Shown piece after piece: positions 3,876-21,281 of a stretch of 64,000 bases of DNA; position 1 is the stretch's first letter; each line of letters starts with the position of its first letter. The notes under the pieces were generated by a model. It made no database searches and was not told where the DNA came from. It worked only from the letters and a program-made list of their open reading frames with translations. A program made the position numbers and the translations under genes. The stretch covers positions 80,040 to 144,039 of the forward strand of contig JBAYIS010000002.1 in the NCBI GenBank assembly GCA_041665525.1. The letters are read 5' to 3'. This DNA is from Bacteroidota bacterium (GTDB taxonomy: Bacteria > Bacteroidota > Ignavibacteria > UBA10030 > UBA8401).

Positions 3876-4033
3876 AGAAGACCTCCCTAACAAGTGTGAA
3901 AGAAGATCAGTGCCGAACCGACGATGGGAATATCTCCGGTTCAGCACTGATCTTTAGATCTGATGAATTAAGTAATACTATTTCAGGAATCTTATATAGT
4001 CGGCATGAACCAACTTCATAATCAGGACCATGC

Positions 4034-5323: not shown

Positions 5324-5634
5324 GGTGTCCTCAATAGTTGTGTGAAAGAAATTGATGCTTTTGAATAAGCACTCAATACTTTCAAAAAAGTATCTCATTG
5401 TGAGATTGAATGGTAAATCATAATCAAGGGCGTTGTAACCAGTATTGTCCGGAGCAATCACCCCCGCGGAAACCGCGCACTAAAAACGCAATCACATGCT
5501 TCGGACTGATGGAAGTTGTTCGTCGCCCCCGGTTTACCTCATGTCTTAATGAATGGATACGTGAGAGAACACAAATATTGGAACATGAAAAAAATTACCC
5601 CGCCCTGACGGACGGGATATTCATTTCTCATTTG

Positions 5635-7632
5635 TTATTTCATCAGGACCAATTTCTTGGTAGAGATGAACTGATCCGCCTGCAGCCGGTAAAAATAGAT
5701 ACCGCTGGCAAGATTATTCACATCCGCAGTGAACCGGACAGTGTACACTCCTGCTTGCTGACGGTTGTTTACCAGCGTTGCGACTTCCTCTCCCAGAATG
5801 GAATAGACCATCAGCGATACCTGTGCAGCTGCGCCGATGCTGTATTCGATTGTGGTAGAAGGATTGAACGGATTCGGATAGTTCTGCGACAACGTGAATC
5901 CATCAGGCACAGTGGCCAATTGAACTTCATTAACAATCGGAATTCCGCCGATTGTTGTCGCATTCAACACTATCGAATCGGTTTTCGCCAATAATCGTCC
6001 ATAGACAACTGCTCCGTTGTTTGCTGTTATGGAAGATGAAGCCATAATGTTGCCACTGAATGTTGAGTTGGCTCCAAGTGTTGCCGAGGTTCCTACCTGC
6101 CAGAATATGTTGAACCATTGTGCACCATTGACGAGCTTCACATAACTTTCAGTCGCTGTGGTCAGCGCACCGGTCATTTTAAAGACCCATACTGCGCTCG
6201 CGTCACCCTTTGCATCAAGTGTCAGCGTATCGGTTACACCGAATGTGCCAAGACTGGAAGTATACACGCCTTGTGTATAGACTTTCCCGCTCAATTCAGA
6301 AGAGATGGTTGAATCGTTGCCACGGTCAACCGTACTGTCGTACGCCGCCTTCAACGCAAGCTGTGCAGCAGCAGAAGTTGCATTCCCCGGATGTTTTGCA
6401 CCTGTCACTGTTGCCGGTGGAAATCCTGTGATGACCGTGCTCGGGCTGACACCGATATCGCCGGTGATCGCTGTAAGACCGGTACTGACGATCTTTGAGC
6501 CGGCAAGGACTCTAAAATTAGCGGCTGTGCCAAGAAATACTGCCGGAGAAATTGTTGCTGTCGCTGTTCCCCCGATCGTATTGGATTGCAAAGTAACCGA
6601 TGCGGTCCGCGACATTGCTCTCCCTTCCAGCGATGCGCCGGTAGCAAACGTCACTGCCGTGTGCGCTAAGATTGTCCCTTTCATTTTGCACGTGGTACCG
6701 AACGTGGCCGCACTTCCGACCTGCCAGAAAATATTGGAAGCATTCGCGCCGCCGGCGAGAAAAATCTGGCGCCCTGATGTCATATTGAAGTTGGAAGCAA
6801 TCTGGAAAATCCACACCGCATTCACATCTCCTTGTGAATCAAGCGTAAGGTCACCATCGGTGATCTCCAGAGAACCGTTGGATTTATAGAGACCCGGGTA
6901 AAGCGTTCTGCCGCCAAGATTTCCGGAAACTCCGATCGGATCGACCGTCCGGCCCGCTGCATCGTTAAATGCAATTGTCAGATCGCCCATGGCAACGGTC
7001 AGCATCACCGGATATGGGATCGAACCGGATGGTCCGGTCGCATCAACTCCATAAATAGTTCCGACAACATTCGGTGTACCAAATCCGGTCATATACGATC
7101 CGGCAAGAGGACTTACCCCGACATTTCCGGTAATGACCGAAGGGCCCGTATTAGTGATTCCGGCATACGAAAGAATTGCAAATCCGCCGGACATACCGAG
7201 TGTAACCGGTAAGAGTGGTGTTATGGGAGTGATATTCCATGTCGTGAATTTCCGGGCGGTTGAGAAGGCGCTTTTTAATCCGCCATTCTTTGCACTATCC
7301 CGCACACTCACTCGCCAGTAATACGTGACAGAGTTTTTTAGTCCGGTGATGGAATGGGAAACTCCCGCAAGTGTGGAATCGTTATACAATGCGGTACCAA
7401 AGATATTGCTGGTATCAATTTGAAGATGATACGCACTATCGCCGGAAGCAGCCTGCCATTGTAATTGGATTGTAGTTGATTGATTGATTGCCCCATTGGC
7501 AGGTGATAATAGCACCGGCACTAACTGGGCAACAGCGGTTGTGCTGATCAACAGCACAGTGACAAGTGCGGTTCCGAAGAACCGTTTCATGCGTCCGCTA
7601 AGCGGTTTGGAATACAGTGAATTCGTTTTCAT
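5635..7632 (-). CDS. secreted protein: FN3-like domain, two tandem DUF3494 domains, T9SS C-terminal sorting domain
   Basis: Signal peptide. N-terminal FN3-like module (LLSPANGAINQ..YYWRV). Two DUF3494 copies (ASNIFWQVGSAATFG.. and QWFNIFWQVGTSATLG..). CTD QNYPNPFNPSTTIEY..GIYFYRL..KKLVLMK. Confidence 0.85.
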   Translation of the reverse strand: MKTNSLYSKPLSGRMKRFFGTALVTVLLISTTAVAQLVPVLLSPANGAINQSTTIQLQWQAASGDSAYHLQIDTSNIFGTALYNDSTLAGVSHSITGLKNSVTYYWRVSVRDSAKNGGLKSAFSTARKFTTWNITPITPLLPVTLGMSGGFAILSYAGITNTGPSVITGNVGVSPLAGSYMTGFGTPNVVGTIYGVDATGPSGSIPYPVMLTVAMGDLTIAFNDAAGRTVDPIGVSGNLGGRTLYPGLYKSNGSLEITDGDLTLDSQGDVNAVWIFQIASNFNMTSGRQIFLAGGANASNIFWQVGSAATFGTTCKMKGTILAHTAVTFATGASLEGRAMSRTASVTLQSNTIGGTATATISPAVFLGTAANFRVLAGSKIVSTGLTAITGDIGVSPSTVITGFPPATVTGAKHPGNATSAAAQLALKAAYDSTVDRGNDSTISSELSGKVYTQGVYTSSLGTFGVTDTLTLDAKGDASAVWVFKMTGALTTATESYVKLVNGAQWFNIFWQVGTSATLGANSTFSGNIMASSSITANNGAVVYGRLLAKTDSIVLNATTIGGIPIVNEVQLATVPDGFTLSQNYPNPFNPSTTIEYSIGAAAQVSLMVYSILGEEVATLVNNRQQAGVYTVRFTADVNNLASGIYFYRLQADQFISTKKLVLMK

Positions 7633-7707
7633 AAAGCCTCTTTCGATTGGATAGTTGTGGAGTGTATCAAATATCGGACGGAGATTCGTATCCGTCGATC
7701 AGAGATA

Positions 7708-8787
7708 CTACTTCAACAGGGTAAATTTTTTCGTTGAAACGAATGATCCTGCGTTCAAACGGTAAAAATACACACCGCTCGATATATTGTCCGCAAGAGT
7801 ATTGGTATTAAATTGAACTGCATACACACCGCCCACTTGTTCCTCCTGCACCAGTGTGGCCACTTCTCCGCCGATCAGATTGTACACTTTCAAGGAAACG
7901 TGGACAGGTTTCTCAATTGAGTATTGGATAACAGTGGAGGGGTTGAACGGATTCGGATAATTCTGTTCCAGGGCAAAGACTTTCGGCACAACTGTTCCGA
8001 CAGCCGCGGTGACTGAAGAAGGCAATGTAATTACATTGGCCGCCAACGTAACAGCCGCACTGCTGGCGAGCGCTCGTCCTTCTAATGCGGCTCCCGTTGC
8101 CAGAGAGATAGATTGCGCAGCCATGATCGTACCTTTAAATACTGAAGTGGTCCCAAGCGTTGCCGAAGTGCCCACCTGCCAGAAGATATTTGACGCTTTT
8201 GCGCCGCCGGCAAGGATCACCTTAATTCCTGTCCCTACATTCAGCGTGGTGCCAATTTGGAATATCCACACAGCAGTAGAGTTGCCGCTCAGCGTCACGT
8301 CCGATCCGGTAATCGCAGCTGTTGTGGTGAATTTGTACAGTCCCGGTACCAATGTCATACCGCCGATATTGCCTGTCCCCGGATTCAGGAATGTTCCCGA
8401 GGGAATTGGTGTCCGGCCGGCTGCATCATTATAGGCGATGGTAAGATCACCCTTTGCAGCAGTAAGAATTACTGGGGAAATTGTCGCACCGACAGGTCCG
8501 GTCGCATCGACAGTGTAAAATTTCCCGTTCAATTCAAGCAGTCCGAATCCGGTAATGCCGCTCCCGGCGGCAGGACTGAGACCGATATCGCCGGTGACGT
8601 CCGAAGTCGGAACGTTCGACACAAGCGAACCGGCAAGAACGACAAAATTTGCAGTCGAATTCAGATCGACCGGTTGGAGCACTTGTGACTGGACTGTCCC
8701 GGAGATCATCAGCAAAAATGCCAATGAGGCGGCGACGAAACGTATCGTTGACCGGATTGTTGTTATGTTGTTTGTAAGAATGTTCAT
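7708..8787 (-). CDS. secreted DUF3494 (ice-binding-like) protein with T9SS C-terminal sorting domain
   Basis: AGAGG RBS upstream of ATG at 8787. Signal peptide, a single DUF3494 domain with about 80% DNA identity to the 1371-3875 paralog. CTD EQNYPNPFNPSTVIQY..GVYFYRL..KKFTLLK. Confidence 0.85.
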   Translation of the reverse strand: MNILTNNITTIRSTIRFVAASLAFLLMISGTVQSQVLQPVDLNSTANFVVLAGSLVSNVPTSDVTGDIGLSPAAGSGITGFGLLELNGKFYTVDATGPVGATISPVILTAAKGDLTIAYNDAAGRTPIPSGTFLNPGTGNIGGMTLVPGLYKFTTTAAITGSDVTLSGNSTAVWIFQIGTTLNVGTGIKVILAGGAKASNIFWQVGTSATLGTTSVFKGTIMAAQSISLATGAALEGRALASSAAVTLAANVITLPSSVTAAVGTVVPKVFALEQNYPNPFNPSTVIQYSIEKPVHVSLKVYNLIGGEVATLVQEEQVGGVYAVQFNTNTLADNISSGVYFYRLNAGSFVSTKKFTLLK

Positions 8788-8909
8788 AATGCCTCTGGTA
8801 GATGGTGTACTGACGACGCGTCCTGTGTTCATGTACGCATTCTCCTCCGGAGGGGAGAATGCGCTGCTCATACTTAAGCTCAGGACAATAAAAAATATTT
8901 TTCCTGCGG

Positions 8910-10181
8910 CTATTTCATCAATAGCATTTTCTTTGTCTCAACAAACGCTCCTGATTGGAGCCGATAAAAATAGACACCGCTCGTTAATATGCCTGATCCG
9001 GACGATGCTGTGAACGGGACCGAATAATTCCCCGCTTCCTGACTGCTGTTCACAAGGTCAGCCACTTCTTCACCGATGACATTATAGACTTTCAGCGAAA
9101 CCTTTGCGGTGTTTGCAAGACTGTAATGAATCATGGTAGACGGATTGAATGGATTAGGAAAATTATTCATAAGCGCATATTCTTTCGGAGCGCCGGTAAT
9201 TGTTACTTCCACTGCTTGCGAATATTCAAACTTTCCATCACGATCGATTTGTTTCAGTCGGTAAGAATATTTCCCTTCTAAAAGACTTTCGTCGGAAAAG
9301 GAATATTGCTTCGGTGCGTTGGTTGTTCCGCTTCCTTCCACAAAACCTAATTTGTTCCAACTGATAACTGATGACTGGCGACTGACATCTGTTCTTTCTA
9401 TTTCAAATCCATAATTATTCACTTCCGTGGCCGTTGACCATTGAAGTAAACTGCCCGCACGGTGAGCGGTTGCGGTAAATGTCGAGAGCTCCACAGGAAG
9501 AGTTGAAGTACCTGTTAACGTCACTCCGGCGTCTCGCGCCAATGTTCTTCCTTCAATGGTGCCGGTATTTTGTGTAATAGCAGTATTTGCAAGAATAACT
9601 CCTTTGAATGTCCCATCAATGGTCGCGGAACTGCCAAGCTGCCAAAACACATTAGACCACACTGCACCGCCGGTGAGCAATACGTTGCATGTTACTCCGG
9701 TAATCAGGGTCGTACTCGCCTGGAAGATAAAAATGTCGCTTGCGGAACCGTTCAATGTCAGCGTTCCATTAATCCCAAATGTTCCGGAGGAGTAGATTCC
9801 GCGGCCTAATGTTAATCCTCCCAATTCCACTCCCAATGCCTCATCGGCGGAGCGCACCGATACATCCGCAATAACGGTTGCAAGATCTGCGAGAGCCGTC
9901 GTCACGACTCCGCCGGCTGTATAGATCGAACCGGTAATGACACCATTGTTCGTCACCGATGTACCGCCCGCATCTCCGGTGATGGTTGATGCGGCACCGT
10001 TCGTCAGCGCGGTACCGGCAAGCGCACGGAAATTACCCGCTGTTAAGAGATCAACAGGTGCCGGATTGGTGTGCTGTGAAAACGTGATGAGCGGCAGAGT
10101 TAATGCACACACCAAAAGCGTTCCTATGGTGCGCATATTCACTATGCGCTGTTGCAAGTTATTCTTAAGAGAGTATTTCAT
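8910..10181 (-). CDS. secreted DUF3494 protein with an ~80-aa linker domain and T9SS C-terminal sorting domain
   Basis: Signal peptide. DUF3494 motifs (FRALAGTALTN..TGDAGG ... WSNVFWQLGSSATIDGTFKGVILANTAITQNTGTIEGRTLA). A linker domain (LPVELSTFTATAHRAGSLLQWSTATEVNNYGFEIER...) precedes the CTD (NFPNPFNPSTMIHYSL..GVYFYRL..KKMLLMK). An alternative start exists at the internal Met at 10136. Confidence 0.8.
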   Translation of the reverse strand: MKYSLKNNLQQRIVNMRTIGTLLVCALTLPLITFSQHTNPAPVDLLTAGNFRALAGTALTNGAASTITGDAGGTSVTNNGVITGSIYTAGGVVTTALADLATVIADVSVRSADEALGVELGGLTLGRGIYSSGTFGINGTLTLNGSASDIFIFQASTTLITGVTCNVLLTGGAVWSNVFWQLGSSATIDGTFKGVILANTAITQNTGTIEGRTLARDAGVTLTGTSTLPVELSTFTATAHRAGSLLQWSTATEVNNYGFEIERTDVSRQSSVISWNKLGFVEGSGTTNAPKQYSFSDESLLEGKYSYRLKQIDRDGKFEYSQAVEVTITGAPKEYALMNNFPNPFNPSTMIHYSLANTAKVSLKVYNVIGEEVADLVNSSQEAGNYSVPFTASSGSGILTSGVYFYRLQSGAFVETKKMLLMK

Positions 10182-10220
10182 TGTTGCCCCCGATATTATT
10201 GTGGAGAATTTTCTCCCGTA

Positions 10221-11990
10221 CTATTTCAGAAGGATCATTTTTTTTGTGGAAACAAAACCATTAACATTCAAACGATAGAAATACATACCGCTCGTCAGAG
10301 ATTTGGAATCTTGGTGTGCAACAAAAGGAATGGAATATTGTCCTGCGCGCTGCATTTTATTCACCATTGTCGATACTTCTCTTCCCATCGCATCATACAC
10401 GATTAATGATACATGTCCATTTACCGCTACTTGATATGATATCATCGTTGTGGGATTGAATGGATTCGGATAGTTTTGAAACAGTATGTAATCAGAAGGA
10501 GCTGCACTACCCATTCCGACGGATGTTGTTACTCCGCTTTTCATGATACGTGAAGCATAAATATCAAAATTTCCGGATCGCTGATCCTGCCAGGCAATAA
10601 TCACTCCGCCGCTGCCGTCGCTGGCAGTGCTCGGATTTGTTTGCGTGCTGTCCGCCGTGCCGATCGGCATTCCGTTGGCTGTCCATGGAAAAGCAAAACT
10701 GCCGGTGATCCGCGACGCATACACATCGTATGTATTGTGGTTGATGCTGCTGTCCCGTTTATCGATCCATGTGATCACCGCGCCATTGCTGCTGTCCGTG
10801 ACAATAGTCGGATGCGACTGGTTTCCGGCAGCACTGCTGACGATGATCCCATTCACATTCCAACCTGTTGCAACAACTCCGGTTGAATCGACACGCTGGG
10901 CATAGATGTCGGACGTAATTCCGGTTCGGAAATCTTCCCATGTCATCAATGCACCGCCAACACCATCGCTCACCAGTCGAGGATTGATCTGATCATACGC
11001 CACATTGTTATTCATCACCGTTCCGTTTACCACCCATCGAATGGCGACTTCTGCTGTCATCCGCTGGACCCAAATATCGATTGATGTGGTGCTGCGGAAA
11101 TCTTCCCATACAATAATCGCGCCGCCGTTGCCGTCGGCGCAAATGTCCGGATTGGTTTGATCTGTTGCCATGGTGCAGACCGCTCCGCCGTTGGCGATGC
11201 CGATGACACCGCCGATGGCGCTGACGTGTTGTGTATAGATATCATAATTTCCCGCACGCTGATCGTACCATGTAAGATATGCCCCGCCGCTGCCGTCATC
11301 GATAATTCTCGGTCCATGCTGCGCTGCAGCTTCGGTGCATACTCCGATGCCGTTAGCGGTCCATTGAGAAACACCGGCTGCATTTACTCGCTGAATGTAG
11401 ATATCAGCAAGCCCGGGACCGGCGTTGCTGCGAAAATCTTCCCACGCAAATAATGCTCCTCCCTTGCCGTCGCTCACCATGGCAATGTTTGTTTGATCAA
11501 ATACCGTTACGCACACAGGGGTACCGGATGCCGGTCCCCATTGCAACACACCGGATGCATTGACCCGCTGGGTATAAATGTCATAATTGCCGCTTCGCTT
11601 GTCCTGCCACGAGATAATAGCTCCACTGTTCCCGTCGCCGATGATGGTTGGATTGATTTGATTGCTGTCCGCCGCACAGATTACTATCCCATTCGCCGCC
11701 CATTGTACCGATCCGGCGGCATTGATTCGCTGTGCATACAGATCATAATTCCCATTCCGTTTATCCTGCCAGACAATAAACGCGCCGCCGGCACCGTCGC
11801 CGACAGCAGCGGGATTGATCTGATCGTTGGCAGAGTTGCTGATTAGTGTATTCACTTTGGGATCGCCGGACCATTGCGAATGAAGGAGGGTCGGAATCAT
11901 TAGAAAAATTCCGCCGAATACGATACTGGAAAATAGTCGGCGCAGAGAGGATGTTTGTAAGAGAACAGTGGTGATGGTATAAATTTTCAT
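10221..11990 (-). CDS. repeat protein (~10 tandem ~55-aa beta-propeller-like repeats) with T9SS C-terminal sorting domain
   Basis: Signal peptide. The repeated motif G(D/N)G.GGA.I.W.D.R.GNYDIY.QRV...G...W..NG recurs about 10 times. The C-terminus is a CTD (FQNYPNPFNPTTMISY...GMYFYRL..KKMILLK). Confidence 0.8.
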   Translation of the reverse strand: MKIYTITTVLLQTSSLRRLFSSIVFGGIFLMIPTLLHSQWSGDPKVNTLISNSANDQINPAAVGDGAGGAFIVWQDKRNGNYDLYAQRINAAGSVQWAANGIVICAADSNQINPTIIGDGNSGAIISWQDKRSGNYDIYTQRVNASGVLQWGPASGTPVCVTVFDQTNIAMVSDGKGGALFAWEDFRSNAGPGLADIYIQRVNAAGVSQWTANGIGVCTEAAAQHGPRIIDDGSGGAYLTWYDQRAGNYDIYTQHVSAIGGVIGIANGGAVCTMATDQTNPDICADGNGGAIIVWEDFRSTTSIDIWVQRMTAEVAIRWVVNGTVMNNNVAYDQINPRLVSDGVGGALMTWEDFRTGITSDIYAQRVDSTGVVATGWNVNGIIVSSAAGNQSHPTIVTDSSNGAVITWIDKRDSSINHNTYDVYASRITGSFAFPWTANGMPIGTADSTQTNPSTASDGSGGVIIAWQDQRSGNFDIYASRIMKSGVTTSVGMGSAAPSDYILFQNYPNPFNPTTMISYQVAVNGHVSLIVYDAMGREVSTMVNKMQRAGQYSIPFVAHQDSKSLTSGMYFYRLNVNGFVSTKKMILLK

Positions 11991-12094
11991 AGTATTGGTA
12001 TTGGTAAAAATTTGGTGTCTATAGTTCTATTGTGAATTTCTCCTCCCCCGTCGTTTTGATTTTAACGGGGGTGAGCAATTCACACGATCGTAAA

Positions 12095-12919
12095 TTATAA
12101 TGCTGTCTTTACCACTGTACTGCCGGCCATGGTTATTCCGCCGATTCGCGCTAATAAATGTCCTTCAACAGACGCTCCGGTATTCAATGAGATCGATTGA
12201 TCGGCCATGATTGTACCTTTAAAAACCGATGTGGTTCCGAGCGTTGCAGACGTACCAACCTGCCAGAAGATATTCGAAGCCAGCGCGCTCCCTTTCAAAA
12301 TTATTTTCCGACCGGAGGTCATGCTGAGAGTGGAGGCAATCTGAATGATGAATACGGCATTTGCATTTCCTTTTGCATCGAATGTTAGTTCGCCGGAAGA
12401 GATTTCCAACGAGCCGCTTGATTTATAGAGTCCGGGCGTGAGTGTCACACCGCCGATGTTGCCGGCAAGTAGAACAATGTCTGTTGCTGTTCGCCCTGCA
12501 GCATCATTATAGGCTGTTGTCAGATCCCCTTTTGCAGCAGTTAGCATTGCCGGTGTGCCGACAGGCGAAACGTCATCGGCTGCATAAATAGTCCCGGTTA
12601 CTTCCGTTAACCCGAAGCCGGTAATGAACGATCGCGCTGCGGGGCTGATCCCGATGTCGCCTGTGATTGCTGATGTGGGAACATTCGAAATAAGCGATCC
12701 CGCCAGAAGTGCAAATCGTGCGGTGGTGCGGAGATTCACTTTGGCCTGTACTGTGGTCTGGAGCGGTATAACGATCGGCGTCGTGCCGACAACTGTTCCG
12801 TCGTCGTTACCACAACCGGTAAATACCAGTCCCATGAATATTGCAACCGATAGTGCAATAATAGCGCTATGCTTCCAAGTGATTGGCCGAAGAGAATTAT
12901 GTATGTGCATGATGTTCAT
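12095..12919 (-). CDS. DUF3494 (ice-binding-like) lipoprotein, single domain, no CTD
   Basis: GGAG RBS upstream of ATG at 12919. Lipobox VFTGCGND. DUF3494 motifs (FALLAGSLISNVPTSAITGDIGISPAARSFITGF ... ASNIFWQVGTSATLGTTSVFKGTIMADQSISLNTGASVEGHLLA). Confidence 0.75.
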   Translation of the reverse strand: MNIMHIHNSLRPITWKHSAIIALSVAIFMGLVFTGCGNDDGTVVGTTPIVIPLQTTVQAKVNLRTTARFALLAGSLISNVPTSAITGDIGISPAARSFITGFGLTEVTGTIYAADDVSPVGTPAMLTAAKGDLTTAYNDAAGRTATDIVLLAGNIGGVTLTPGLYKSSGSLEISSGELTFDAKGNANAVFIIQIASTLSMTSGRKIILKGSALASNIFWQVGTSATLGTTSVFKGTIMADQSISLNTGASVEGHLLARIGGITMAGSTVVKTAL

Positions 12920-13370
12920 GTGATACTCCATATAAAAATTGATGAGCCAAAGAATACCGTGATGGCCTTTGGCACTGGAACAACATACAGACTCGTTCAA
13001 GAGAAATATATCGCCCAGAAGGATGAAAGAATGATTAGACCTTTAGGACGAGTGTTCCGCAGCATGATGGTGTCCGAAGACACACGCCGGTATGAAAATT
13101 GACTCATACACCAAATGGGAAGAAGAGCCGTGTGCCTCTTCCTGTTCGTCATTTCTATCCGGATGAAGGGTCTATTTTCATCCCAAGGATGAGCGAGAAA
13201 TGCTCTTCGTTCCCAACGTAATGGAAAGAAGAGCATTTCCTCGCCGAATTTACTATCCTATTGCCGTTTCAATTAAATCTGATTGTAAAACAAAAACTGT
13301 TATCCTGAGCGAGCCGTAATTCCCTTGACGCCGAGTCGAAGGATGATCCTTAATACACAAGGTTACTTTT

Positions 13371-13581: not shown

Positions 13582-15570
13582 TTATTCCGGAACTATATCA
13601 ATAATGACAGACCTATTATAGAAGCGTTGCTCCGGGAAATAATTGTCAAACGGTGCATACTGACTGTCTTCACCGAATGCAATGGTTTCGAAAGTCACAG
13701 TCTGTTTTTTGCTTTTCGAAAGACTGTTTTCGATGATCCGGCGAACACCTTCAACGCGCTCACTGGACAGATTCTCATTATATTCTTCTTCGCCGATGAT
13801 ATCGGTATAACCATGAATCACCACAATACCGCTGTCGGGAATCTGCGGCACAATCACTTCCGTCAAAAATTTTTCATAGCTGGCGACTGTTTTCGATTTA
13901 TCAAAATCAAAGAGGATGCTGTACCGTACTGCTTCACGTTTCGGAGCATCTCTGCGGATTAAGTGTACGGTAGATTCTTTGCGGACAGATTTCCCGCTCT
14001 TGGTCTGTGCCAGCATCACCACAGTATAGTTACCCTGGGCCCTGCCGCCGAGAATGGTATTCCCCGGAATAGTCATTCGTTCTTTGGTGTATGGCCCGAA
14101 CCGCTGAACTTTTCCGGCACTGTCTATTACCTCAATTGACCATGAGGAAAATGCCTCTTTCGCACCGGGGGCGTCGAAGAACACATGACTATCCAACGGA
14201 TCTTCCACAACGGCGACAATTTGAACCGGTTTTAACATATAATGTGGACCGCCGCCGACTTGTATCATCAGTTCCGGCGAAGCGCTCTCAATATCTACTC
14301 TATTATCACCTTCACGGATCAATATCAGTTCTTTTGTTCCGCCGATGATCTCCGAAGGGACTTTGGGTTTGTCGCGTCCTTCGGTCGTGATTCTTGCAGA
14401 ATCTATTCCAAAGACATTGACCAAATAGAGTTTTACCGATTCAGCACGTTCTTTTCCCTGCAATTCCCCGGCACCCGACGAACCACTCAAGTGAACTGAC
14501 GTTCCCGGATTCCGTCTCATCCTGTCCCCAACAACATTTAGAATGTTGTAATAGACGGTCATTTGGCGAAGCGAGCGGCCGGTATTATTTTTCGGCTGCA
14601 CTTCCTGTAACTCTTCTTCCTTAAAATTCACCGCTTCTGCCTTCGTCAGCTTCTCATACCGCATCGGGATAGCCGCTGATCCTTCTTCGAAGAAAACATA
14701 ATCTCGCATCGGGAATGATTCACGCACTCTCCGTTTTACCGGAACTGCTTTCGGAGCCCGGACAGAAAACTTCACATCCTTTTCGATAATGACTGCTTCC
14801 GGCGGCACATACGCTTGTTCTACAACATCACCGCTGCCGAATGTCAACGATACACCAACACGAACAGTGGAAACTGCCCACGTCTCAACAGAACGGGGAT
14901 CCTGTCCAAAATACGGTTGGAATGAAACGAACGGCGACAATTCCCATTGGGTCTCGGCATCCGACGCGCTGAGCGGAATTGCATATCCCACGCCGATCTG
15001 ACCGGATAACACAAGGCTGTTCATATCGCTGAACTCTCCCTGTGTGGTCGATTGTCCTTCGTGAACAAAAAGAAATTTCTTCTCATCCGGTGAGGAGAAC
15101 GAAAAATTATACCCGATCCTCGGGCCGCCGAAAATGTAGAATTCATCTTCAAAGGGAGAGAAACGGAGACTGGGTTCAAATGAAATGTAACTGATCGTTG
15201 CGTTCAGGGTCGAGTTTTCACCGCAGGGACACGGAACATCGAAAAATGCTGCGCGTCGATCGTCATATCCTAATTGCAGTATGCCGCCCCACATGGTATT
15301 CGGTCGATATTCTAAAACGGGCGCGAGATAAATGCCCGCACCAAATCCTTTATGAAATGCCGTTGGTACCGATAATCCGGAATTCAGCATCTGTGTTGTT
15401 CCGCCGTAGAAATTCAAGTTGACCGCTCCGGCTCCGCCATACCACCATACCGGAGTGGAATACTGTTCCTCCTGTGCCGGTGCGGTGGCTGCGACAAACA
15501 CCATTGCGCAAGCAATCATGAGACTGCGTACGAGTGCTGATTTTTTACTGTTCGATTGAAATTGATACAT
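13582..15570 (-). CDS. OmpA-family outer-membrane protein (N-terminal beta-barrel, central domain, C-terminal OmpA peptidoglycan-binding domain)
   Basis: Signal peptide (ACAMVFVAATAPAQ). G/Y-rich barrel strands. The C-terminus carries the OmpA-C signature (VIHGYTDIIGEEEYNENLSSERVEGV). Confidence 0.8.
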   Translation of the reverse strand: MYQFQSNSKKSALVRSLMIACAMVFVAATAPAQEEQYSTPVWWYGGAGAVNLNFYGGTTQMLNSGLSVPTAFHKGFGAGIYLAPVLEYRPNTMWGGILQLGYDDRRAAFFDVPCPCGENSTLNATISYISFEPSLRFSPFEDEFYIFGGPRIGYNFSFSSPDEKKFLFVHEGQSTTQGEFSDMNSLVLSGQIGVGYAIPLSASDAETQWELSPFVSFQPYFGQDPRSVETWAVSTVRVGVSLTFGSGDVVEQAYVPPEAVIIEKDVKFSVRAPKAVPVKRRVRESFPMRDYVFFEEGSAAIPMRYEKLTKAEAVNFKEEELQEVQPKNNTGRSLRQMTVYYNILNVVGDRMRRNPGTSVHLSGSSGAGELQGKERAESVKLYLVNVFGIDSARITTEGRDKPKVPSEIIGGTKELILIREGDNRVDIESASPELMIQVGGGPHYMLKPVQIVAVVEDPLDSHVFFDAPGAKEAFSSWSIEVIDSAGKVQRFGPYTKERMTIPGNTILGGRAQGNYTVVMLAQTKSGKSVRKESTVHLIRRDAPKREAVRYSILFDFDKSKTVASYEKFLTEVIVPQIPDSGIVVIHGYTDIIGEEEYNENLSSERVEGVRRIIENSLSKSKKQTVTFETIAFGEDSQYAPFDNYFPEQRFYNRSVIIDIVPE

Positions 15571-15710
15571 ACAAACCTCCTGTGAAAAGTATTTTTAATC
15601 ATTAATCCACAATCTACTTCTGCAATGAGCGGACCAATCAACCATTGCAGATTCCATGCCCCGGGAAACTCCTGCATACACCAAAGGTTGCTGTATGCAG
15701 GATGTCGATA

Positions 15711-18700
15711 TTATGGTGTTGGAACATATACTGTTGAAGCAGCACCATCCAAAGCAAGCGTACTGGCACCGAGCGCGCCGGCTAATAATCTGCCATAAAC
15801 CGTTGTTCCGCCGGCAAGCGTAAGGTCCCCGCCAGCCAGAACATTTCCGTAGAAGATTGTTCCCGATCCTATCGACGCAGCCGCTGTCGGTACGAAGAAC
15901 ACATTCTTCTGCTGAGCCGATCCGGTGAGTGTCACATCGCCCCCCGGTGCTCCGGAGAATGTCGACAATGAGGAACCGATCTGGAAGACCCAGACGGCAT
16001 CCGCATTGCCGCCGCCGTCGAGAATGACCGGTGTATTGATCAATAAAGTACTGCTGGAAGTATAGGTTCCCGGAGGAAGACGACCCGGAGGATTTGCACC
16101 AACAATAAACGAACCTAAGTCCTGACCATCAGGCACGGTGATACCTACTGGTTTATTCTTGGCAAAATTAAATGCTGTTGTCAGATCGGTATATACCGCC
16201 GAAGCGACTCCATCGGCAATGTGTAATTCACCATGCACTTGCGCTGCCAATAATCCATTGGAATTGCCCGGGAACATTGCGACATCACCCCATATTTGGG
16301 AGGCTCCGCTGGCATCGGTGATCGCAGATGACGATAAGATTCCATATGTGCTGGCTAAGCCAAGCGGTACCGCACCCGGTGCCAGACCATCGCCGGTGGT
16401 AAAGCGCCAAACCGTTGAATAAGCACTTGTTCCGCCGCTGTTCTTTGCATTCACACGCCAGTAATATGTGGTATTGATTTTCAAGCCTGTAACGGGTTTT
16501 ATCAGACCTAGTACCGTAGAATCATTCACGACTGGATTCGCAAAGACTTGACTCGTATCCAGCTGCACTCTGTACGATGAGGCTCCGTTCGAAGCGAGCC
16601 AGCTCAGTGACAGATTCAATTTCTGATCGATCGCTGCATCCAGCGGTGCTGAGAGAATCGGCGGCTGTGGAACAGTAAGTATTACTGTAAAGCTCCGCAC
16701 GATGGAATATGGGCTGGTTCCGGAACCATTCTTTGCATTGACACGCCAGAAGTATGTCGTTCCGTTCACCAGACCGGTAATAGGCTGTGATGTGCCGGTA
16801 ATAGTTGAATCATTGAAGAGCGTTGTCGCAAAGGTATTGCTCGTGGAAAGCTGCAAGCGATACGTATTGGCACCGATCGATGCGTTCCAGCTGAGTGACG
16901 GATTTGTCGGTCGGTTTGTCGCCAAATCACTCGGTGCGATTAATGTAGGCGCTAACGGTACGGCGGTTGTATTAAAGCTCCAAACCGTTGAAAACACGCT
17001 TGTTCCAGCCGCATTCTTTGCGTTCACACGCCAGAAGTAAGTTGTTCCAACCGATAAGCCGGAAATTAGCTGCGATGTGCTTGTGCGGGTGGAATCATTA
17101 TAGAGTGTTGTTGCAAAAGTATTGACGGTGGAAACCTGTACACGGTATGTCGATGCACCGGCGACGGAATTCCATATCAGTGTCGGATTTGCCGATTGGT
17201 TGGTTGCGCTATTAAGCGGCGCCACTAACACCGGCGCTGATGGCGCAACGATGGTCGTGAAGCTACGAATGGAAGAGTACACGCTTGTACCGGCAGCATT
17301 TTTTGCATTCACACGCCAGAAATATTGTGTTCCGACAGCGAGTCCACTTACCTGCTGCGACGTACTGGTGAGTGTTGAGTCATTATAGGTTGTTGTCGCA
17401 AACGTGTTCACCGTCGACACCTGCAATCGATACGTCGACGCACCGGAGACAGCAAGCCAGATCAGTGAAGGATTCACCGACTGATTGATCGCTGCATCGG
17501 TCGGAGCAAAGAGCACCGGCGCTGCGGGTGCAACAATGGTCGTAAAGCTTCGGATCGTTGAATAGGCACTCGTTCCGGCAAGGTTCTTGGCATTCACTCT
17601 CCAGAAGTATGTGGTGCCGATCGCCAGGCCAGTAACCTGTTGTGATGTACTGGTGCGGGTCGAATCATTATAGACTGTTGTCGCAAACGTATTGCTGGTG
17701 GAAACCTGCAGACGATACGTTTCGGCTGCCGGCACATCGTTCCAGATGAGTGTCGCTATGACGGGTTGATTGATCGCCGCATTAAGCGGAGTAACCAGTG
17801 TGGGTACTGCCGGCGCGGCAATCGTCGTAAAGCTCCAAACATCCGAATACTCGCTAGTCTGTCCGGATATTTTGGAATTCACACGCCAGAAATACGTGGT
17901 GCCAATGGAGAGTCCGGATATCAATTGCGATGTATTGGTCAGCGTCGAATCGTTGAAGAGTGTTGATGCAAAAGTATTGGACGTGGAAACTTGTAATCGA
18001 TATGAACCGGCTCCGGGAACTACATTCCACACAAGCGTCGAATTGACAGCCTGATGAAGTGCTCCGTCAAGCGGAGCAACGAGTGTCGGAGTTCCTGCGC
18101 TGATTGTTGTAAAGCTGCGTGATGAATACGTGCTTGTTCCTGCCGCATTCTTTGCACTAACGCGCCAGAAATATCCGGTTCCCCCGACTAATCCGGTCAC
18201 CTGCTGCGATGTCCCGGTAATTGTAGCATTGTTATAGACGGTGTTCACAAACGAACTGGAAGTCGAAACTTGCAGTGTGTATGAACTTGCTCCCGGTGAC
18301 GCTGTCCAACTAAACGTAGGACTGGTGGAAATATTTATTGCAGAAGCATTCGGTGTAACGAGCACCGGTGCTGCCGGAACAGCGATTGTCGAAAAATTCC
18401 AGACATTGGAATAGGCGCTTGTTCCGCCGGAAATCTTTGAATTCACTCTCCAATAATATGTTGAACCTACGGTCAGCCCCGATACCACGGTGGAAGTGTT
18501 GGTCAGTGTTGAATCATTGAAAACGGTAACAACAAATCCCGGATCAAGCGATACCTGCAGACGGTAGGATGATGCGCTCTGCACAGTATTCCAGGTGAAT
18601 GTCTGAATTATTGATTGATTGATTGCCCCGTCGATCGGCGAAACAAGCACCGGCGTGCCGGCAGCAATGGTCGTAAAGGACCAGACATACGCAGCCGCAA

Positions 18701-19187
18701 GCGGTGTGCCGACTCTATCTTTTACGCCGGTCGTGAGTGTGCACGTATAAGTGAGATTTGGAGCAAGCCCGTCCTGAACGACCAAGATCGCAGTAGTATC
18801 CGAGTACGATACGTTGGAAAGCAGAACTGTCGTTCCCTGTTTGATGATGAATGTCGACGAGTTTATGGTTCGTGCATCCATCGGAGTGCTGAATGTTGCG
18901 GTAACAATTTTAACGGCGACGGGTTTTAGTATTTTCGTGCCGCCCATTTTTTTACTCAATGACTCATTCGTCCCTCCGTCAACAGGAGAGGTCCGAATAA
19001 CAGTCGGGGCTGCGCAGACGTTCACTGTTCCGACCACTTCATCTCTGCATCCGCTCATAAACAGCACGGAAAGAATGGTGGTGGTAAAAAAAATCGCTGC
19101 AACAGTTCCGAGAAGTTTCCGATGTGTGCGGGGATAACCGGACCGTCGGTTGATTGGTGATGTTTGGTGTGTTGTGAGAGTATTCAT
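15711..19187 (-). CDS. giant lipoprotein: Ig/Big-like domain, 8 tandem FN3-like repeats, C-terminal DUF3494 (ice-binding-like) domain
   Basis: Lipobox LFMSGCRD. Big-like N-terminal domain. Eight ~94-aa repeats each ending in ..T(Y/F)(Y/F)WRVN(A/S)KN..G.S.YS. The C-terminal ~230 aa are DUF3494-like (ADAVWVFQIGSSL ... KNVFFVPTAAASIGSGTIFYGNVLAGGDLTLAGGTTVYGRLLA). No T9SS CTD. Confidence 0.85.
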   Translation of the reverse strand: MNTLTTHQTSPINRRSGYPRTHRKLLGTVAAIFFTTTILSVLFMSGCRDEVVGTVNVCAAPTVIRTSPVDGGTNESLSKKMGGTKILKPVAVKIVTATFSTPMDARTINSSTFIIKQGTTVLLSNVSYSDTTAILVVQDGLAPNLTYTCTLTTGVKDRVGTPLAAAYVWSFTTIAAGTPVLVSPIDGAINQSIIQTFTWNTVQSASSYRLQVSLDPGFVVTVFNDSTLTNTSTVVSGLTVGSTYYWRVNSKISGGTSAYSNVWNFSTIAVPAAPVLVTPNASAINISTSPTFSWTASPGASSYTLQVSTSSSFVNTVYNNATITGTSQQVTGLVGGTGYFWRVSAKNAAGTSTYSSRSFTTISAGTPTLVAPLDGALHQAVNSTLVWNVVPGAGSYRLQVSTSNTFASTLFNDSTLTNTSQLISGLSIGTTYFWRVNSKISGQTSEYSDVWSFTTIAAPAVPTLVTPLNAAINQPVIATLIWNDVPAAETYRLQVSTSNTFATTVYNDSTRTSTSQQVTGLAIGTTYFWRVNAKNLAGTSAYSTIRSFTTIVAPAAPVLFAPTDAAINQSVNPSLIWLAVSGASTYRLQVSTVNTFATTTYNDSTLTSTSQQVSGLAVGTQYFWRVNAKNAAGTSVYSSIRSFTTIVAPSAPVLVAPLNSATNQSANPTLIWNSVAGASTYRVQVSTVNTFATTLYNDSTRTSTSQLISGLSVGTTYFWRVNAKNAAGTSVFSTVWSFNTTAVPLAPTLIAPSDLATNRPTNPSLSWNASIGANTYRLQLSTSNTFATTLFNDSTITGTSQPITGLVNGTTYFWRVNAKNGSGTSPYSIVRSFTVILTVPQPPILSAPLDAAIDQKLNLSLSWLASNGASSYRVQLDTSQVFANPVVNDSTVLGLIKPVTGLKINTTYYWRVNAKNSGGTSAYSTVWRFTTGDGLAPGAVPLGLASTYGILSSSAITDASGASQIWGDVAMFPGNSNGLLAAQVHGELHIADGVASAVYTDLTTAFNFAKNKPVGITVPDGQDLGSFIVGANPPGRLPPGTYTSSSTLLINTPVILDGGGNADAVWVFQIGSSLSTFSGAPGGDVTLTGSAQQKNVFFVPTAAASIGSGTIFYGNVLAGGDLTLAGGTTVYGRLLAGALGASTLALDGAASTVYVPTP
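16380..18700 (-). repeat. DNA-level tandem array, about 8 copies of a ~285-bp unit encoding the FN3-like repeats
   Basis: The block ttcacacgccagaa(a/g)ta recurs at about 16451, 16741, 17025, 17311, 17594, 17880, 18160 and 18445, a period of 283-290 bp. This causes the spurious repeated plus-strand ORFs (FFAFTRQKY...). Confidence 0.8.
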
Positions 19188-19251: not shown

Positions 19252-19578
19252 TCAGGCAGATCGGCGTTTCGTCGTTCGTTGCGTTGTTGATAATTTCGTA
19301 GCGGTCGTTTTCATTTTCTTCTTTTTTGATCGCGTTTCGCTTTTCATTTTCATCAGATTGGCGTTAGATTTTTTTAATTGCTCCATAATCTTTTTATACA
19401 CAGTCACATGGCGTTTTACTTCTTCCTTGGCAATGCCGTATTTCTCCTGAAGCATGCCAACAACCTGTTCGTGTTTTCCGGCAATTGCGGCAAGTTCATC
19501 ATTCATCAGTTTTCCCCAGTGATGCACTGCCTTGCCTCGACGTTGTTTCCACTGTCCTTCAATTCTATCCCAGTTCAT
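19252..19578 (-). CDS. CsbD-like general stress protein with Lys-rich C-terminal tail
   Basis: The N-terminus MNWDRIEGQWKQRRGKAVHHWGKLMNDELAAIAGKHEQVVGMLQEKYGI matches the CsbD family pattern. A basic KKKKMK tail follows. Confidence 0.65.
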   Translation of the reverse strand: MNWDRIEGQWKQRRGKAVHHWGKLMNDELAAIAGKHEQVVGMLQEKYGIAKEEVKRHVTVYKKIMEQLKKSNANLMKMKSETRSKKKKMKTTATKLSTTQRTTKRRSA

Positions 19579-20026: not shown

Positions 20027-20671
20027 TTACTCTTCGCGGGCGTATGAAGCAATCTGCAGCCGGCTGTGGAGTGCCAGCTTCTCGAGGATATTGTGAACGT
20101 GACTTTTTACTGTAAAGGTGGCGATATTCAATGATTCGGCTATTTCCTTATTGCTCATTCCCTCAACAATGAGTGCAATAATTTCTTTTTCGCGCTGTGT
20201 CATCCGGATTGAACCCTTGAGGCCTTTTTTCCCCTTCACTAAAGCATGCTCCACCACTTGAAGGAACAGCGAACCGGTCATCGGCGGCGGCAGCACGGTC
20301 TCGCCGTCGGCAACTGCCCGAATCGTTTTGATCACTTCTTCCATGGAAGCATCTTTAAGAATAAAACCGTCGGCGCCGGACTGGACGAATTCCATAATGT
20401 CCGTTTGCGACGCGACCAGTCCCATACCAACGACCTTCACATTGGGGAATGTACTCCGCACTGATCGCACTATATCTAGACTGTTCTTGCTGGCGATCCC
20501 AAGATCCATCAGAATCACATTTGGCTTCACCGCTTGTATTTTCTTGATCGTATCGTCTCTGCCGTCAGAAACAGCCGCAACCATAACATCCGCATGCTTG
20601 TTGATCATGACGGTGATACCTTCACGTAAAATACGATTATCCTCAAGAAGTAAGACGCGAATCTTCGCCAT
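20027..20671 (-). CDS. two-component response regulator, NarL/FixJ (LuxR-type HTH) family
   Basis: Receiver domain (RVLLLEDN...LMDLGI with the phospho-acceptor Asp) plus a C-terminal LuxR HTH (EKEIIALIVEGMSNKEIAESLNIATFTVKSHVHNILEKL). ATG at 20671 is preferred over the upstream TTG. Confidence 0.85.
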   Translation of the reverse strand: MAKIRVLLLEDNRILREGITVMINKHADVMVAAVSDGRDDTIKKIQAVKPNVILMDLGIASKNSLDIVRSVRSTFPNVKVVGMGLVASQTDIMEFVQSGADGFILKDASMEEVIKTIRAVADGETVLPPPMTGSLFLQVVEHALVKGKKGLKGSIRMTQREKEIIALIVEGMSNKEIAESLNIATFTVKSHVHNILEKLALHSRLQIASYAREE

Positions 20672-21281
20672 AGGTAACAATATTGAAATTGTGAGTTTCG
20701 CGGTGACGAGACAATCTGAAAAGAATCCCTATAGGATCAAAGCCGTAAGTTATTTCTTGGGACTTGGACATGACGAGAGTGGAAAAATTAACCACTGAAA
20801 GTATTCAAAATTGAATATTTTCGGTCATTCACTCTATTCTTGGTCTTTAATCTCATTTTTTTTTTTTTAAAAATCAAGCTTTATTTCAGAAGCTGTATGA
20901 TTCACTCTATACAACAAAACGAAGCCTTGGCTCATTATTTTGAGTCGGATCAAATTTTTGAAACTGATGATGTTCAATTGGCAATACTCACACGCTATTC
21001 AAACAATATTTCGGCTTCCGAATCGGGAGAGAAAAAGGGTTTTCCTGCGTACGCATTTACTAAAATCAAAAGGCTTTTCGGCATTGAGTGATAGATTGAA
21101 ACACCGGCGCAGTTATAAAGTGAAATTGCAGAAGATTTTCAGGTTTGGGAATATTGTAATAAACCGCATACTTTTTTATATTGAACCAATATTACTGGTA
21201 ATTTCATTTGTGAAACTTTTCAAAAATCCTATATTGCCAATCCATAGTCACATTTTAGGGTTTTTATAACAGGAAATATCC

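What the first reader, a model, noticed from the sequence alone, without database searches (positions are those of the whole stretch)
15711..19187. Lipid-anchored stalk protein: lipobox, Big domain, 8 near-identical FN3 repeats, terminal DUF3494 head
The 1158-aa protein is predicted to be N-terminally lipid-anchored and has no T9SS CTD. It carries eight tandem ~94-aa FN3-like modules, encoded by a ~285-bp DNA tandem array at 16380-18700. The DUF3494 domain is the last ~230 aa. This recalls repeat-stalk ice-binding adhesins, which are built from unrelated folds. The DNA-level repeat identity makes copy-number expansion and contraction by slipped-strand or recombination events likely. That would tune stalk length.
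Basis: partly seen in the sequence, partly recalled or inferred. Interest (0 to 1): 0.6.

Follow-up and report, generated by a model that had tools for sequence, protein, structure and literature searches.

The report
Stalked surface ice-binding-like lipoprotein
This gene encodes a long bacterial surface protein with a probable lipid anchor, a rod of eight old and diverged FN3 modules and an ice-binding-type (DUF3494) tip; it resembles a known candidate "ice adhesin" design and is not a fast-changing repeat gene.

Summary
The ORF (15711-19187, minus strand, 1158 aa) and its domain order are real. It has a lipobox-like signal with Cys47, one Big_5 domain, eight FN3-like modules and a C-terminal DUF3494 domain, with no T9SS tail. 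The head models at pLDDT 96.6, and its best 31 PDB matches are all DUF3494 ice-binding proteins.

The "near-identical repeats" claim is wrong. The modules are 45-74% identical in protein and 52-69% in DNA. Synonymous sites are saturated, the longest shared exact word is 18 nt, and Tandem Repeats Finder finds nothing. In six orthologues each module matches the same-numbered module of the query, so the array is old and stable. Copy number does differ across the wider family (3, 5, 7, 8, 9, 11).

New points:
- The gene lies in a conserved island with seven other DUF3494 genes and an OmpA-like gene that is always downstream.
- Stalk and head have different histories. The stalk is 85% identical to its closest orthologue but the head only 53%. 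The head is 84% identical to heads carried on Big_5-repeat stalks.

The closest known analogue is SfIBP_1 of Shewanella frigidimarina. I rate this a new member of a known kind. Ice binding, lipidation and surface exposure remain inferred.

The parts
15711..19187 (-). Complete ORF of 1158 aa, identical to NCBI MFA6467654.1 'MAG: ice-binding family protein [Bacteroidota bacterium]'
19047..19187 (-). N-terminal signal, aa 1-47: a 24-aa basic n-region, a 22-aa hydrophobic stretch, and the lipobox-like F-M-S-G-C with Cys47
   Evidence: Sequence. No other start codon lies before V41. The Cys is invariant and the N-terminus is conserved in orthologues. Lipidation itself is inferred.
19035..19046 (-). 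R-D-E-V directly after Cys47, resembling the Bacteroidetes lipoprotein export signal (a basic or polar residue followed by two acidic residues)
   Evidence: E at +4 is invariant in the 15 aligned orthologues, D in one more distant homologue; +2 is R, K or Q in all but one homologue. Motif definition from PMC5080379.
18669..19010 (-). Big_5 bacterial Ig-like domain (aa 60-173)
   Evidence: 63.8 bits against a cut-off of 23.6
18372..18656 (-). FN3-like module R1 (aa 178-272)
18093..18371 (-). FN3-like module R2 (aa 273-365)
17808..18092 (-). FN3-like module R3 (aa 366-460)
17523..17807 (-). FN3-like module R4 (aa 461-555)
17238..17522 (-). FN3-like module R5 (aa 556-650)
16953..17237 (-). FN3-like module R6 (aa 651-745)
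16665..16952 (-). FN3-like module R7 (aa 746-841)
16380..16664 (-). FN3-like module R8 (aa 842-936)
16365..16391 (-). Stalk/head junction (aa 933-941, T-G-D-G-L-A-P-G-A). Similarity switches here from the FN3-stalk orthologue to the type-B head lineage.
15714..16379 (-). DUF3494 (PF11999) beta-solenoid head, aa 937-1158, of head lineage 'type B'
13582..15570 (-). Conserved downstream partner gene of 662 aa: an outer-membrane beta-barrel plus an OmpA peptidoglycan-binding domain
   Evidence: It lies directly downstream, or after one inserted IBP gene, in every family locus where downstream sequence is available.
19252..19578 (-). Conserved upstream CsbD-like stress protein gene
20027..20680 (-). 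Conserved upstream LuxR/GerE-type response regulator gene
1371..13000 (-). Rest of the DUF3494 island, with seven further DUF3494-bearing genes: 1371-3947, 4034-5461, 5635-7632 (two domains), 7708-8871, 8910-10181 and 12095-13000. Gene 10221-11990 carries only a T9SS CTD.

Best explanation
The gene encodes a cell-surface lipoprotein of an uncultured Bacteroidota/FCB-group bacterium that displays a DUF3494 ice-binding-type beta-solenoid at the end of a protein rod.

Proposed path:
1. Sec export, then lipidation and cleavage at Cys47 (inferred).
2. Transfer to the outer membrane, then flipping to the surface through the acidic R-D-E motif after the Cys (inferred by analogy to the Bacteroidetes lipoprotein export signal).
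3. One Big_5 domain plus eight FN3 modules, joined by short proline-rich linkers, hold the head roughly 35-40 nm from the membrane. This length is my estimate, using about 3.5 nm per FN3 domain.
4. The head binds ice. This either tethers the cell to ice or keeps ice-structuring and recrystallisation-inhibiting activity at the cell surface.

The T9SS-tailed DUF3494 paralogues next door would supply secreted or differently attached copies.

The stalk is an old spacer. Its length and its head have been exchanged as cassettes during evolution, not by rapid slippage.

Shown here: the domain order, the DUF3494 fold of the head, repeat divergence and positional orthology, island synteny, and stalk/head incongruence. 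Inferred: lipidation, surface exposure, ice binding, and adhesion versus shielding.
For: - Domain order and scores come from Pfam.
- The head models with pLDDT 96.6 and pTM 0.93. Its best 31 PDB hits are all DUF3494 ice-binding proteins at TM 0.73-0.83. They include EfcIBP 6eio, FfIBP 4nu2, ColAFP 3wp9, IBPv 5uyt and SfIBP_1 6bg8. Sequence matches to these reach E=7e-20.
- In the full-length model the FN3 modules score about pLDDT 80-90 with about seven strands each. Fold matches are to titin, contactin, fibronectin and GhpA bead-on-string arrays.
- The Cys and the acidic +4 residue are conserved, with R, K or Q at +2. The export-signal definition is from PMC5080379.
- The organism has T9SS parts and cargo, so the missing CTD on this protein marks a different route.
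- The island contains a paralogue with a very strong match (E=4e-65, 223 bits) to EfcIBP (PDB 6eio), an ice-binding protein from an Antarctic consortium.
- Synteny LuxR-CsbD-stalk protein-OmpA-like-IBPs holds in many MAGs.
- Family members come from MAGs named for Stordalen fen, SPRUCE peat, Chersky permafrost, McMurdo Dry Valleys, glacier-fed streams and Laguna Lejia.
- Literature describes Ig-like repeats as a tether between membrane and IBP in SfIBP_1 and MpIBP (PMC9957290).
- The stalk behaves as an interchangeable spacer. The same genomic slot and anchor carry FN3 x3-11 or Big_5 x7.
Against: - There is no experimental ice-binding test. The head is only about 25-31% identical to characterised IBPs. 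It scores 69 bits against a cut-off of 400 for the NCBIfam IBP_CFB equivalog.
- DUF3494 also occurs in proteins described as substrate-binding, from non-icy habitats (PMC12337378).
- The signal is atypical. Cys is at position 47, outside the 15-35 window of the PROSITE lipoprotein rule, and the h-region is 22 aa, so an uncleaved membrane anchor cannot be excluded. No dedicated signal-peptide predictor was available.
- The R-D-E motif sits one position closer to the Cys than the optimal C-X-K-(D/E)2.
- The source habitat of this particular MAG could not be established.
Confidence: 0.55

Rival explanations
1. The architecture is the same, but the DUF3494 head binds something other than ice, such as a polysaccharide, a mineral or organic particle surface, or another cell. 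The protein would then be a general surface adhesin of a peat or sediment bacterium.
For: [quoted passage not shown] The head is only about 30% identical to validated IBPs and fails the IBP_CFB equivalog cut-off. At least four divergent head lineages sit on the same anchor and stalk scaffold, which could reflect different ligands. One island paralogue carries a weak CBM9-like match.
Against: Every structural neighbour of the head is an ice-binding protein. The island holds a paralogue with a very strong match (E=4e-65, 223 bits) to EfcIBP. Family members come predominantly from habitats that freeze seasonally or permanently.
Confidence: 0.27
2. The protein is not surface-exposed. The long hydrophobic N-terminal segment acts as an uncleaved inner-membrane anchor, or as a periplasm-facing lipoprotein, and the protein works inside the envelope.
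For: Cys47 lies beyond the usual lipobox position window and the hydrophobic stretch is 22 aa. The export-signal match is imperfect.
Against: The Cys, the small residues before it and the acidic residue after it are conserved across about 25 homologues. By my estimate the stalk plus head extends about 35-40 nm, which is at or beyond the usual width of a periplasm. A periplasmic ice-binding fold has no evident role.
Confidence: 0.08
3. One reading: a contingency-type gene whose tandem DNA repeats expand and contract frequently by slippage or homologous recombination, tuning stalk length within populations.
For: Copy number differs across the family: 3, 5, 7, 8, 9 and 11. A relative with the same head type has 7 modules, with one module replacing R5+R6 in the most similar block. 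In the sister Big_5-stalk family, two otherwise identical proteins differ by exactly one module.
Against: DNA identity between modules is 52-69%, the longest shared word is 18 nt, synonymous sites are saturated and TRF finds nothing. Six orthologues at 65-77% identity keep eight modules in one-to-one positional orthology. The 90%-identity clusters of the query and of its closest orthologue show no length variants other than a different start call.
Confidence: 0.04

Closest known systems
SfIBP_1 of Shewanella frigidimarina (Vance, Graham & Davies 2018, FEBS J 285:1511; head structure PDB 6bg8)
   Same: It has a C-terminal DUF3494 ice-binding domain preceded by tandem beta-sandwich domains and an N-terminal signal or membrane anchor. 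It was proposed to tether the cell to ice (as summarised in PMC9957290). The head fold matches at TM 0.77.
   Different: The stalk here is one Big_5 plus eight FN3 modules, not bacterial Ig-like repeats. The heads are only about 28% identical. The host is an uncultured Bacteroidota/FCB lineage from freshwater, peat or soil-type samples, not a marine gammaproteobacterium. Surface sorting would use the Bacteroidetes export motif. The original paper was not available in the library, so details of SfIBP_1 rest on citing papers and my own knowledge.
MpIBP, the 1.5-MDa RTX ice adhesin of Marinomonas primoryensis (PMC5550230)
   Same: The design logic is the same: a long rod of repeated Ig-like modules projects a small ice-binding domain away from the cell surface.
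   Different: MpIBP is a type I secreted RTX adhesin with about 120 near-identical BIg repeats and a Ca-dependent beta-helix that is unrelated to DUF3494. Here there are no RTX repeats (no such Pfam hit) and only eight diverged modules. T1SS components were not looked for.
Secreted single- or double-domain DUF3494 IBPs (EfcIBP 6eio, FfIBP 4nu2, ColAFP 3wp9, IBPv 5uyt)
   Same: The head has the same fold and belongs to the same Pfam family. The island's paralogues resemble these directly. Gene 12095-13000 gives a very strong match to EfcIBP (E=4e-65), and gene 5635-7632 has two DUF3494 domains like IBPv.
   Different: Those proteins are free and soluble. This one carries a membrane-anchor signal and a 760-aa stalk.
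Surface-exposed lipoproteins of Bacteroidetes carrying the lipoprotein export signal (PMC5080379)
   Same: The lipobox Cys is followed by a basic or polar residue and acidic residues (C-R-D-E here). The organism has T9SS, which is typical of the phylum.
   Different: The motif is shifted by one position relative to C-X-K-(D/E)2. The lineage is far from Capnocytophaga, Bacteroides and Flavobacterium, where the signal was tested. The signal peptide is unusually long.
PEP-CTERM-anchored Nostoc nIBP (PMC7783341)
   Same: It is a DUF3494 IBP thought to stay attached to the cell surface. The authors argue that this favours control of ice at the surface over adhesion.
   Different: The anchor is C-terminal PEP-CTERM and there is no stalk.

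Membership tests
DUF3494 / Pfam PF11999 'Ice-binding-like' domain family | Sequence match above the Pfam gathering threshold | tested here: met
   102.9 bits against a cut-off of 28.7, aa 950-1137
DUF3494 / Pfam PF11999 'Ice-binding-like' domain family | Discontinuous beta-solenoid braced by one long alpha-helix | tested here: met
   The AF2 model has pLDDT 96.6 and a helix at model residues 63-80 beside stacked short strands. The top 31 PDB hits are all DUF3494 IBPs, TM 0.73-0.83.
DUF3494 / Pfam PF11999 'Ice-binding-like' domain family | Ice-binding activity (ice shaping, thermal hysteresis, recrystallisation inhibition) | not testable with these tools
   This needs recombinant protein. No model coordinates were available to inspect the putative ice-binding face.
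NCBIfam NF045625 IBP_CFB (equivalog of the Cytophaga-Flavobacterium-Bacteroides ice-binding protein) | Score at or above the curated cut-off | tested here: not met
   69 bits against a cut-off of 400
SfIBP_1-type anchored tandem-beta-sandwich DUF3494 protein ('ice adhesin' candidate) | DUF3494 domain at the C-terminal end | tested here: met
SfIBP_1-type anchored tandem-beta-sandwich DUF3494 protein ('ice adhesin' candidate) | Run of tandem beta-sandwich (Ig-like) domains between the anchor and the head | tested here: met
   One Big_5 plus eight FN3-like modules. The Pfam families differ from the BIg repeats of SfIBP_1.
SfIBP_1-type anchored tandem-beta-sandwich DUF3494 protein ('ice adhesin' candidate) | N-terminal signal peptide plus membrane anchor | tested here: inconclusive
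   The lipobox-type pattern and a conserved Cys47 are present, but the position is atypical. No SignalP or LipoP tool was available.
SfIBP_1-type anchored tandem-beta-sandwich DUF3494 protein ('ice adhesin' candidate) | Common descent of the whole protein (orthology) | tested here: not met
   Only the head is homologous, at about 28% identity. The resemblance is one of design.
T9SS cargo protein | C-terminal sorting domain (PF18962 or PF13585) | tested here: not met
   There is no hit, and only 21 residues follow the DUF3494 match. Neighbouring paralogues do have the domain.
Bacteroidetes surface lipoprotein with lipoprotein export signal | Two acidic residues preceded by a basic or polar residue within positions +2 to +6 after the lipidated Cys | tested here: met
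   C47-R-D-E-V. +2 is R, K or Q in all but one homologue, and E at +4 is invariant in the 15 aligned orthologues (D in one more distant homologue). Motif definition from PMC5080379. The position is one residue off the optimum, and the function is untested in this lineage.
Contingency / phase-variable tandem-repeat gene | Near-identical DNA repeats that allow slippage or frequent unequal recombination | tested here: not met
   52-69% DNA identity, longest shared word 18 nt, no TRF array. Positional orthology of modules holds across orthologues.
RTX ice adhesin (MpIBP type) | RTX repeats and a type I secretion signal | tested here: not met
   No RTX or related Pfam hit. The N-terminal Sec/lipobox-type signal points to a different route.
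Tat-exported protein | Invariant twin-arginine motif before the hydrophobic region | tested here: not met
   The query has R-K. Homologues have RR, RG, RV, GK or RP at that place.

The most novel reading that the evidence does not exclude
The stalk protein and the OmpA-like outer-membrane, peptidoglycan-binding protein that always follows it form a two-gene, load-bearing surface anchoring module. On this module, FCB-group bacteria of freezing soils and waters swap stalk cassettes (FN3 x3-11 or Big_5 x7) and head cassettes (at least four DUF3494 lineages) by recombination at domain boundaries. That would make it a plug-and-play ice or particle adhesin system, and this gene would be one recombinant combination of it.
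Probability: 0.2. Interest if true: 0.55.

Novelty: new member of a known kind. Interest (0 to 1): 0.3.

Why it matters
If the head binds ice, uncultured Bacteroidota and Ignavibacteria-like bacteria of peat, permafrost and cold freshwater use the same strategy proposed for marine Shewanella: a tethered ice-binding head on a beta-sandwich rod. They would run it alongside a battery of T9SS-secreted paralogues. That is relevant to freeze-thaw survival in thawing permafrost soils. It also offers a natural series of stalk lengths and head types for testing how reach and head type affect ice attachment. The main corrective value is that this is not a hypervariable repeat locus.

Tried and rejected
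- Tandem Repeats Finder on 15000-20000 found nothing. The array shows up only as 60-75% identical direct repeats.
- Tat export was rejected because the twin arginine is not conserved.
- A T9SS CTD was rejected.
- I tested whether the domain-less 589-aa T9SS protein in the island (10221-11990) is a cryptic or non-canonical DUF3494. hhalign gave probability 0.3, so I rejected it.
- The promoter and terminator scan of 13300-21500 gave counts equal to the shuffles, so it says nothing about operon structure.
- I considered misassembly as the cause of the stalk/head incongruence.
  - The ENA MEGAHIT contig and a Logan contig are 100% identical over 7812 nt, though both probably derive from the same reads.
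  - Both breakpoints fall on the domain boundary or gene end.
  - Other metagenome contigs (L087, L088) also carry FN3 stalks with type-B heads.
  - On this evidence I rejected misassembly as the main explanation.
- Sample accessions (SRR6484324, ERZ27249449, SRR24010765) were not found in the paper library, so the habitat of this MAG is unknown.
- The SfIBP_1 paper and the DUF3494 review are not held.
- The head-only protein search returned only proteins under 400 aa and missed the query itself. It was used only to deepen the alignment for structure prediction.
Full report
**Observation.** The minus-strand ORF 15711-19187 encodes 1158 aa. Pfam finds Big_5 at aa 60-173, repeated fn3-type hits, and Ice_binding/DUF3494 (PF11999) at aa 950-1137 with 102.9 bits against a cut-off of 28.7. 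It finds no T9SS sorting domain. The motif Y-R-L-Q-V-S recurs eight times at 93-96-aa spacing. This defines eight modules at aa 178-936, window 16380-18656.

**The repeats are not near-identical.**
- Pairwise identity between modules is 45-74% in protein (mean 57%) and 52-69% in DNA (mean 61%).
- At codons whose amino acid is conserved, the third base agrees only about 47% of the time.
- The longest exact word shared by any two modules is 18 nt.
- Tandem Repeats Finder reports nothing. The general repeat finder sees only 60-75% identical copies at a 279-288-nt period.
- On my knowledge of slipped-strand mispairing and RecA-dependent recombination, this is too little identity for efficient exchange between modules.

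**Age and stability of the array.** A database search found the identical protein (NCBI MFA6467654.1, "MAG: ice-binding family protein [Bacteroidota bacterium]") and about 30 proteins with the same architecture. In six orthologues with 65-77% overall identity, every module is the best match of the same-numbered module of the query. A 9-module protein has one extra module at the N-terminal side. So the 8-module array predates these lineages and has not been homogenised.

Across the wider family the number is 3, 5, 7, 8, 9 or 11. One metagenome relative (L088) has seven modules, with a single module in place of R5+R6. These lie within R4-R6, the most similar block of the array. Stalk length therefore changes, but rarely, and where modules are most alike. 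The 90%-identity clusters of the query and of its closest orthologue contain no length variant apart from an alternative start call.

**Head.** An AlphaFold2 model of aa 931-1158, built on a 125-sequence alignment, has pLDDT 96.6 and pTM 0.93. It shows stacked short strands and one long helix. Its 31 best PDB matches are all DUF3494 ice-binding proteins at TM 0.73-0.83 and 24-31% identity. They include EfcIBP, AnpIBP, FfIBP, ColAFP, IBPv and the SfIBP_1 head. Sequence search agrees, with E down to 7e-20. The head does not reach the NCBIfam IBP_CFB equivalog cut-off, scoring 69 against 400.

**Stalk.** In the full-length model the FN3 modules score pLDDT about 80-90 with about seven strands each. 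The overall pTM is 0.31, as expected for beads on a string. Fold matches are to titin/MyBP-C, contactin, fibronectin, and the GhpA grappling hook protein of the bacterium Aureispira. Linkers are short and proline-rich (sequence). Taking about 3.5 nm per FN3 domain, which is my own figure, the extended protein would reach about 35-40 nm.

**Anchor.**
- ATG at 19187 is the only start codon upstream of V41.
- The N-terminus has a 24-aa basic region, a 22-aa hydrophobic stretch and F-M-S-G-C47.
- The Cys, the Gly before it and the Glu at +4 are invariant in the 15 aligned orthologues. Position +2 is R, K or Q in all but one of the homologues examined, and +4 is E or D in all of them.
[quoted passage not shown] It sits one position nearer the Cys than the optimum (PMC5080379).
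- The Cys lies beyond the usual position window for lipoboxes, and no dedicated predictor was available. Lipidation and surface exposure are therefore well-motivated inferences, not results.

**Context.** The gene sits in a minus-strand island.
- Upstream are a LuxR-type response regulator (20027-20680) and CsbD (19252-19578).
- Directly downstream is a 662-aa outer-membrane beta-barrel/OmpA-domain protein (13582-15570).
- Then come seven further DUF3494 genes, five of them with T9SS tails, and a domain-less T9SS protein.
- The paralogue at 12095-13000 gives a very strong match (E=4e-65, 223 bits) to EfcIBP (PDB 6eio), an ice-binding protein from an Antarctic consortium. It also has a lipobox-like T-G-C followed by G-N-D-D.
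- The order LuxR-CsbD-stalk protein-OmpA-like-IBPs recurs in many MAGs. The OmpA-like gene follows the stalk gene in every locus with downstream sequence.
- IBP gene clusters and domain shuffling have already been reported in Arctic MAGs (PMC9957290).
- Family-bearing MAGs are named for Stordalen fen, SPRUCE peat, Chersky permafrost, McMurdo Dry Valleys, glacier-fed streams and Laguna Lejia, among others. This fits a cold role but is subject to sampling bias. The habitat of this MAG itself could not be established.

**Stalk and head have different histories.**
- Against its closest orthologue (P0002), the query is 81% identical in Big_5 and 76-92% in each FN3 module, but only 53% in the head.
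- The head is 84%, 80% and 83% identical to the heads of P0078, P0080 and P0121. P0078 and P0080 sit on stalks of seven Big_5 domains (P0078 also has PF18998 repeats); P0121 is a short 348-aa Big_5-plus-head protein.
- At nucleotide level the switch occurs at about gene nt 2800 (aa about 934, the linker G-D-G-L-A-P-G). Similarity switches back at the stop codon. The intergenic region and the OmpA-like gene again resemble the P0002 locus.
- The Big_5-stalk form occupies the same LuxR-CsbD-X-OmpA slot in other genomes.
- Heads of almost all other FN3-stalk proteins form one tight group, 64-97% identical to each other and 52-60% to the query. At least two further head lineages exist.
- FN3 stalks with type-B heads also occur on other metagenome contigs, L087 and L088. 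So this is a lineage and not an assembly accident.
- The direction of the exchange is unresolved.

**Comparison with what is known.** The nearest described design is SfIBP_1 of Shewanella frigidimarina. [quoted passage not shown] The present protein shares the head fold and the design, but not the stalk domain family, the host or the sorting route. Only the head is homologous. MpIBP shares only the logic of a repeat rod with an ice-binding tip. The protein is already deposited and named by automatic annotation.

I therefore class it as a new member of a known kind, with modest extra interest from three features: the cassette-like stalk/head exchange, the stalk-length series and the conserved OmpA-like partner.

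**Verdict.** The architecture is confirmed. The "near-identical repeats, hence slippage" claim is refuted. Ice-related surface function is plausible but untested. Interest is 0.3.

Noticed in passing
window 1371-13000 (minus strand): There is a DUF3494 gene island with seven further DUF3494-bearing genes. One has two DUF3494 domains and one has a weak CBM9-like match. Five carry T9SS C-terminal sorting domains. The order is conserved in many MAGs.
   Followed up: partly
window 13582-15570 (minus strand): A 662-aa protein has an outer-membrane beta-barrel and a C-terminal OmpA domain. By eye there may be a second, degenerate OmpA-like region in the middle. It follows the stalk gene in every family locus with downstream sequence, which suggests functional coupling.
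   Followed up: partly
window 12095-13000 (minus strand): This DUF3494 paralogue gives a very strong match (E=4e-65, 223 bits) to EfcIBP (PDB 6eio). It also has a lipobox-like L-V-F-T-G-C followed by G-N-D-D. It may be a second surface lipoprotein IBP, without a stalk.
   Followed up: partly
subject protein aa 225, 413, 508, 603, 698, 793, 889 (position 48 of modules R1 and R3-R8): D-S-T occurs at the same position in seven of eight FN3 modules and is conserved in orthologues. It matches the Bacteroidetes general O-glycosylation motif D(S/T)(A/I/L/V/M/T) (PMC8550257). The total motif count is 8 against 4.4 +/- 2.0 in shuffles, so the signal is positional conservation and not enrichment.
   Followed up: partly
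L083 286-3279 versus L085 10001-13315 (sister Big_5-stalk family, Stordalen 'WOOD18' samples): Two otherwise identical proteins (P0246 with 997 aa, P0244 with 1104 aa) differ by exactly one Big_5 module. The difference is 107 aa or 321 nt, in register, with only 1 nt of microhomology at the junction and near-identical flanks. It is either a recent module deletion or a scaffolding artefact.
   Followed up: partly
window 10221-11990 (minus strand): A 589-aa protein has a T9SS sorting domain and no recognisable N-terminal domain. It is conserved inside the island. hhalign does not relate it to DUF3494 (probability 0.3).
   Followed up: yes
subject protein aa 1-24 and homologues: A cytoplasmic N-terminal extension (M-N-T-x-T-T-N-P ... 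R-W-x-H-F) is conserved before the hydrophobic segment. About half of the homologues have R-R-F-L-G there, which looks Tat-like, but the twin arginine is not conserved.
   Followed up: partly
window 21541-27249 (minus strand); 21282-21356 (+): A 1902-aa hybrid histidine kinase with GAF, about six PAS domains, HisKA/HATPase and a receiver domain lies just upstream of the LuxR-CsbD-IBP block. A tRNA-Arg(TCT) sits between them.
   Followed up: no
window 57580-59865; 34701-36134: There is a PorZ-like T9SS component and a further T9SS cargo protein (BNR/sortilin-like with CTD). This confirms that the organism has a type IX secretion system.
   Followed up: no
window 16138-18054 (+ strand): Several 88-112-aa ORFs lie antisense to the FN3 array (for example 16138-16422, 16702-17040, 17122-17388 and 17770-18054). 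They look like by-products of the repeated coding sequence on the other strand and not genes.
   Followed up: no
L013, L015, L056 (MAGs labelled Fibrobacteria/Fibrobacterota): The same anchor, Big_5, FN3 and DUF3494 architecture (five modules) followed by the OmpA-like neighbour also occurs in MAGs labelled Fibrobacterota. The family therefore spans more than one FCB phylum, or has been transferred between them.
   Followed up: no
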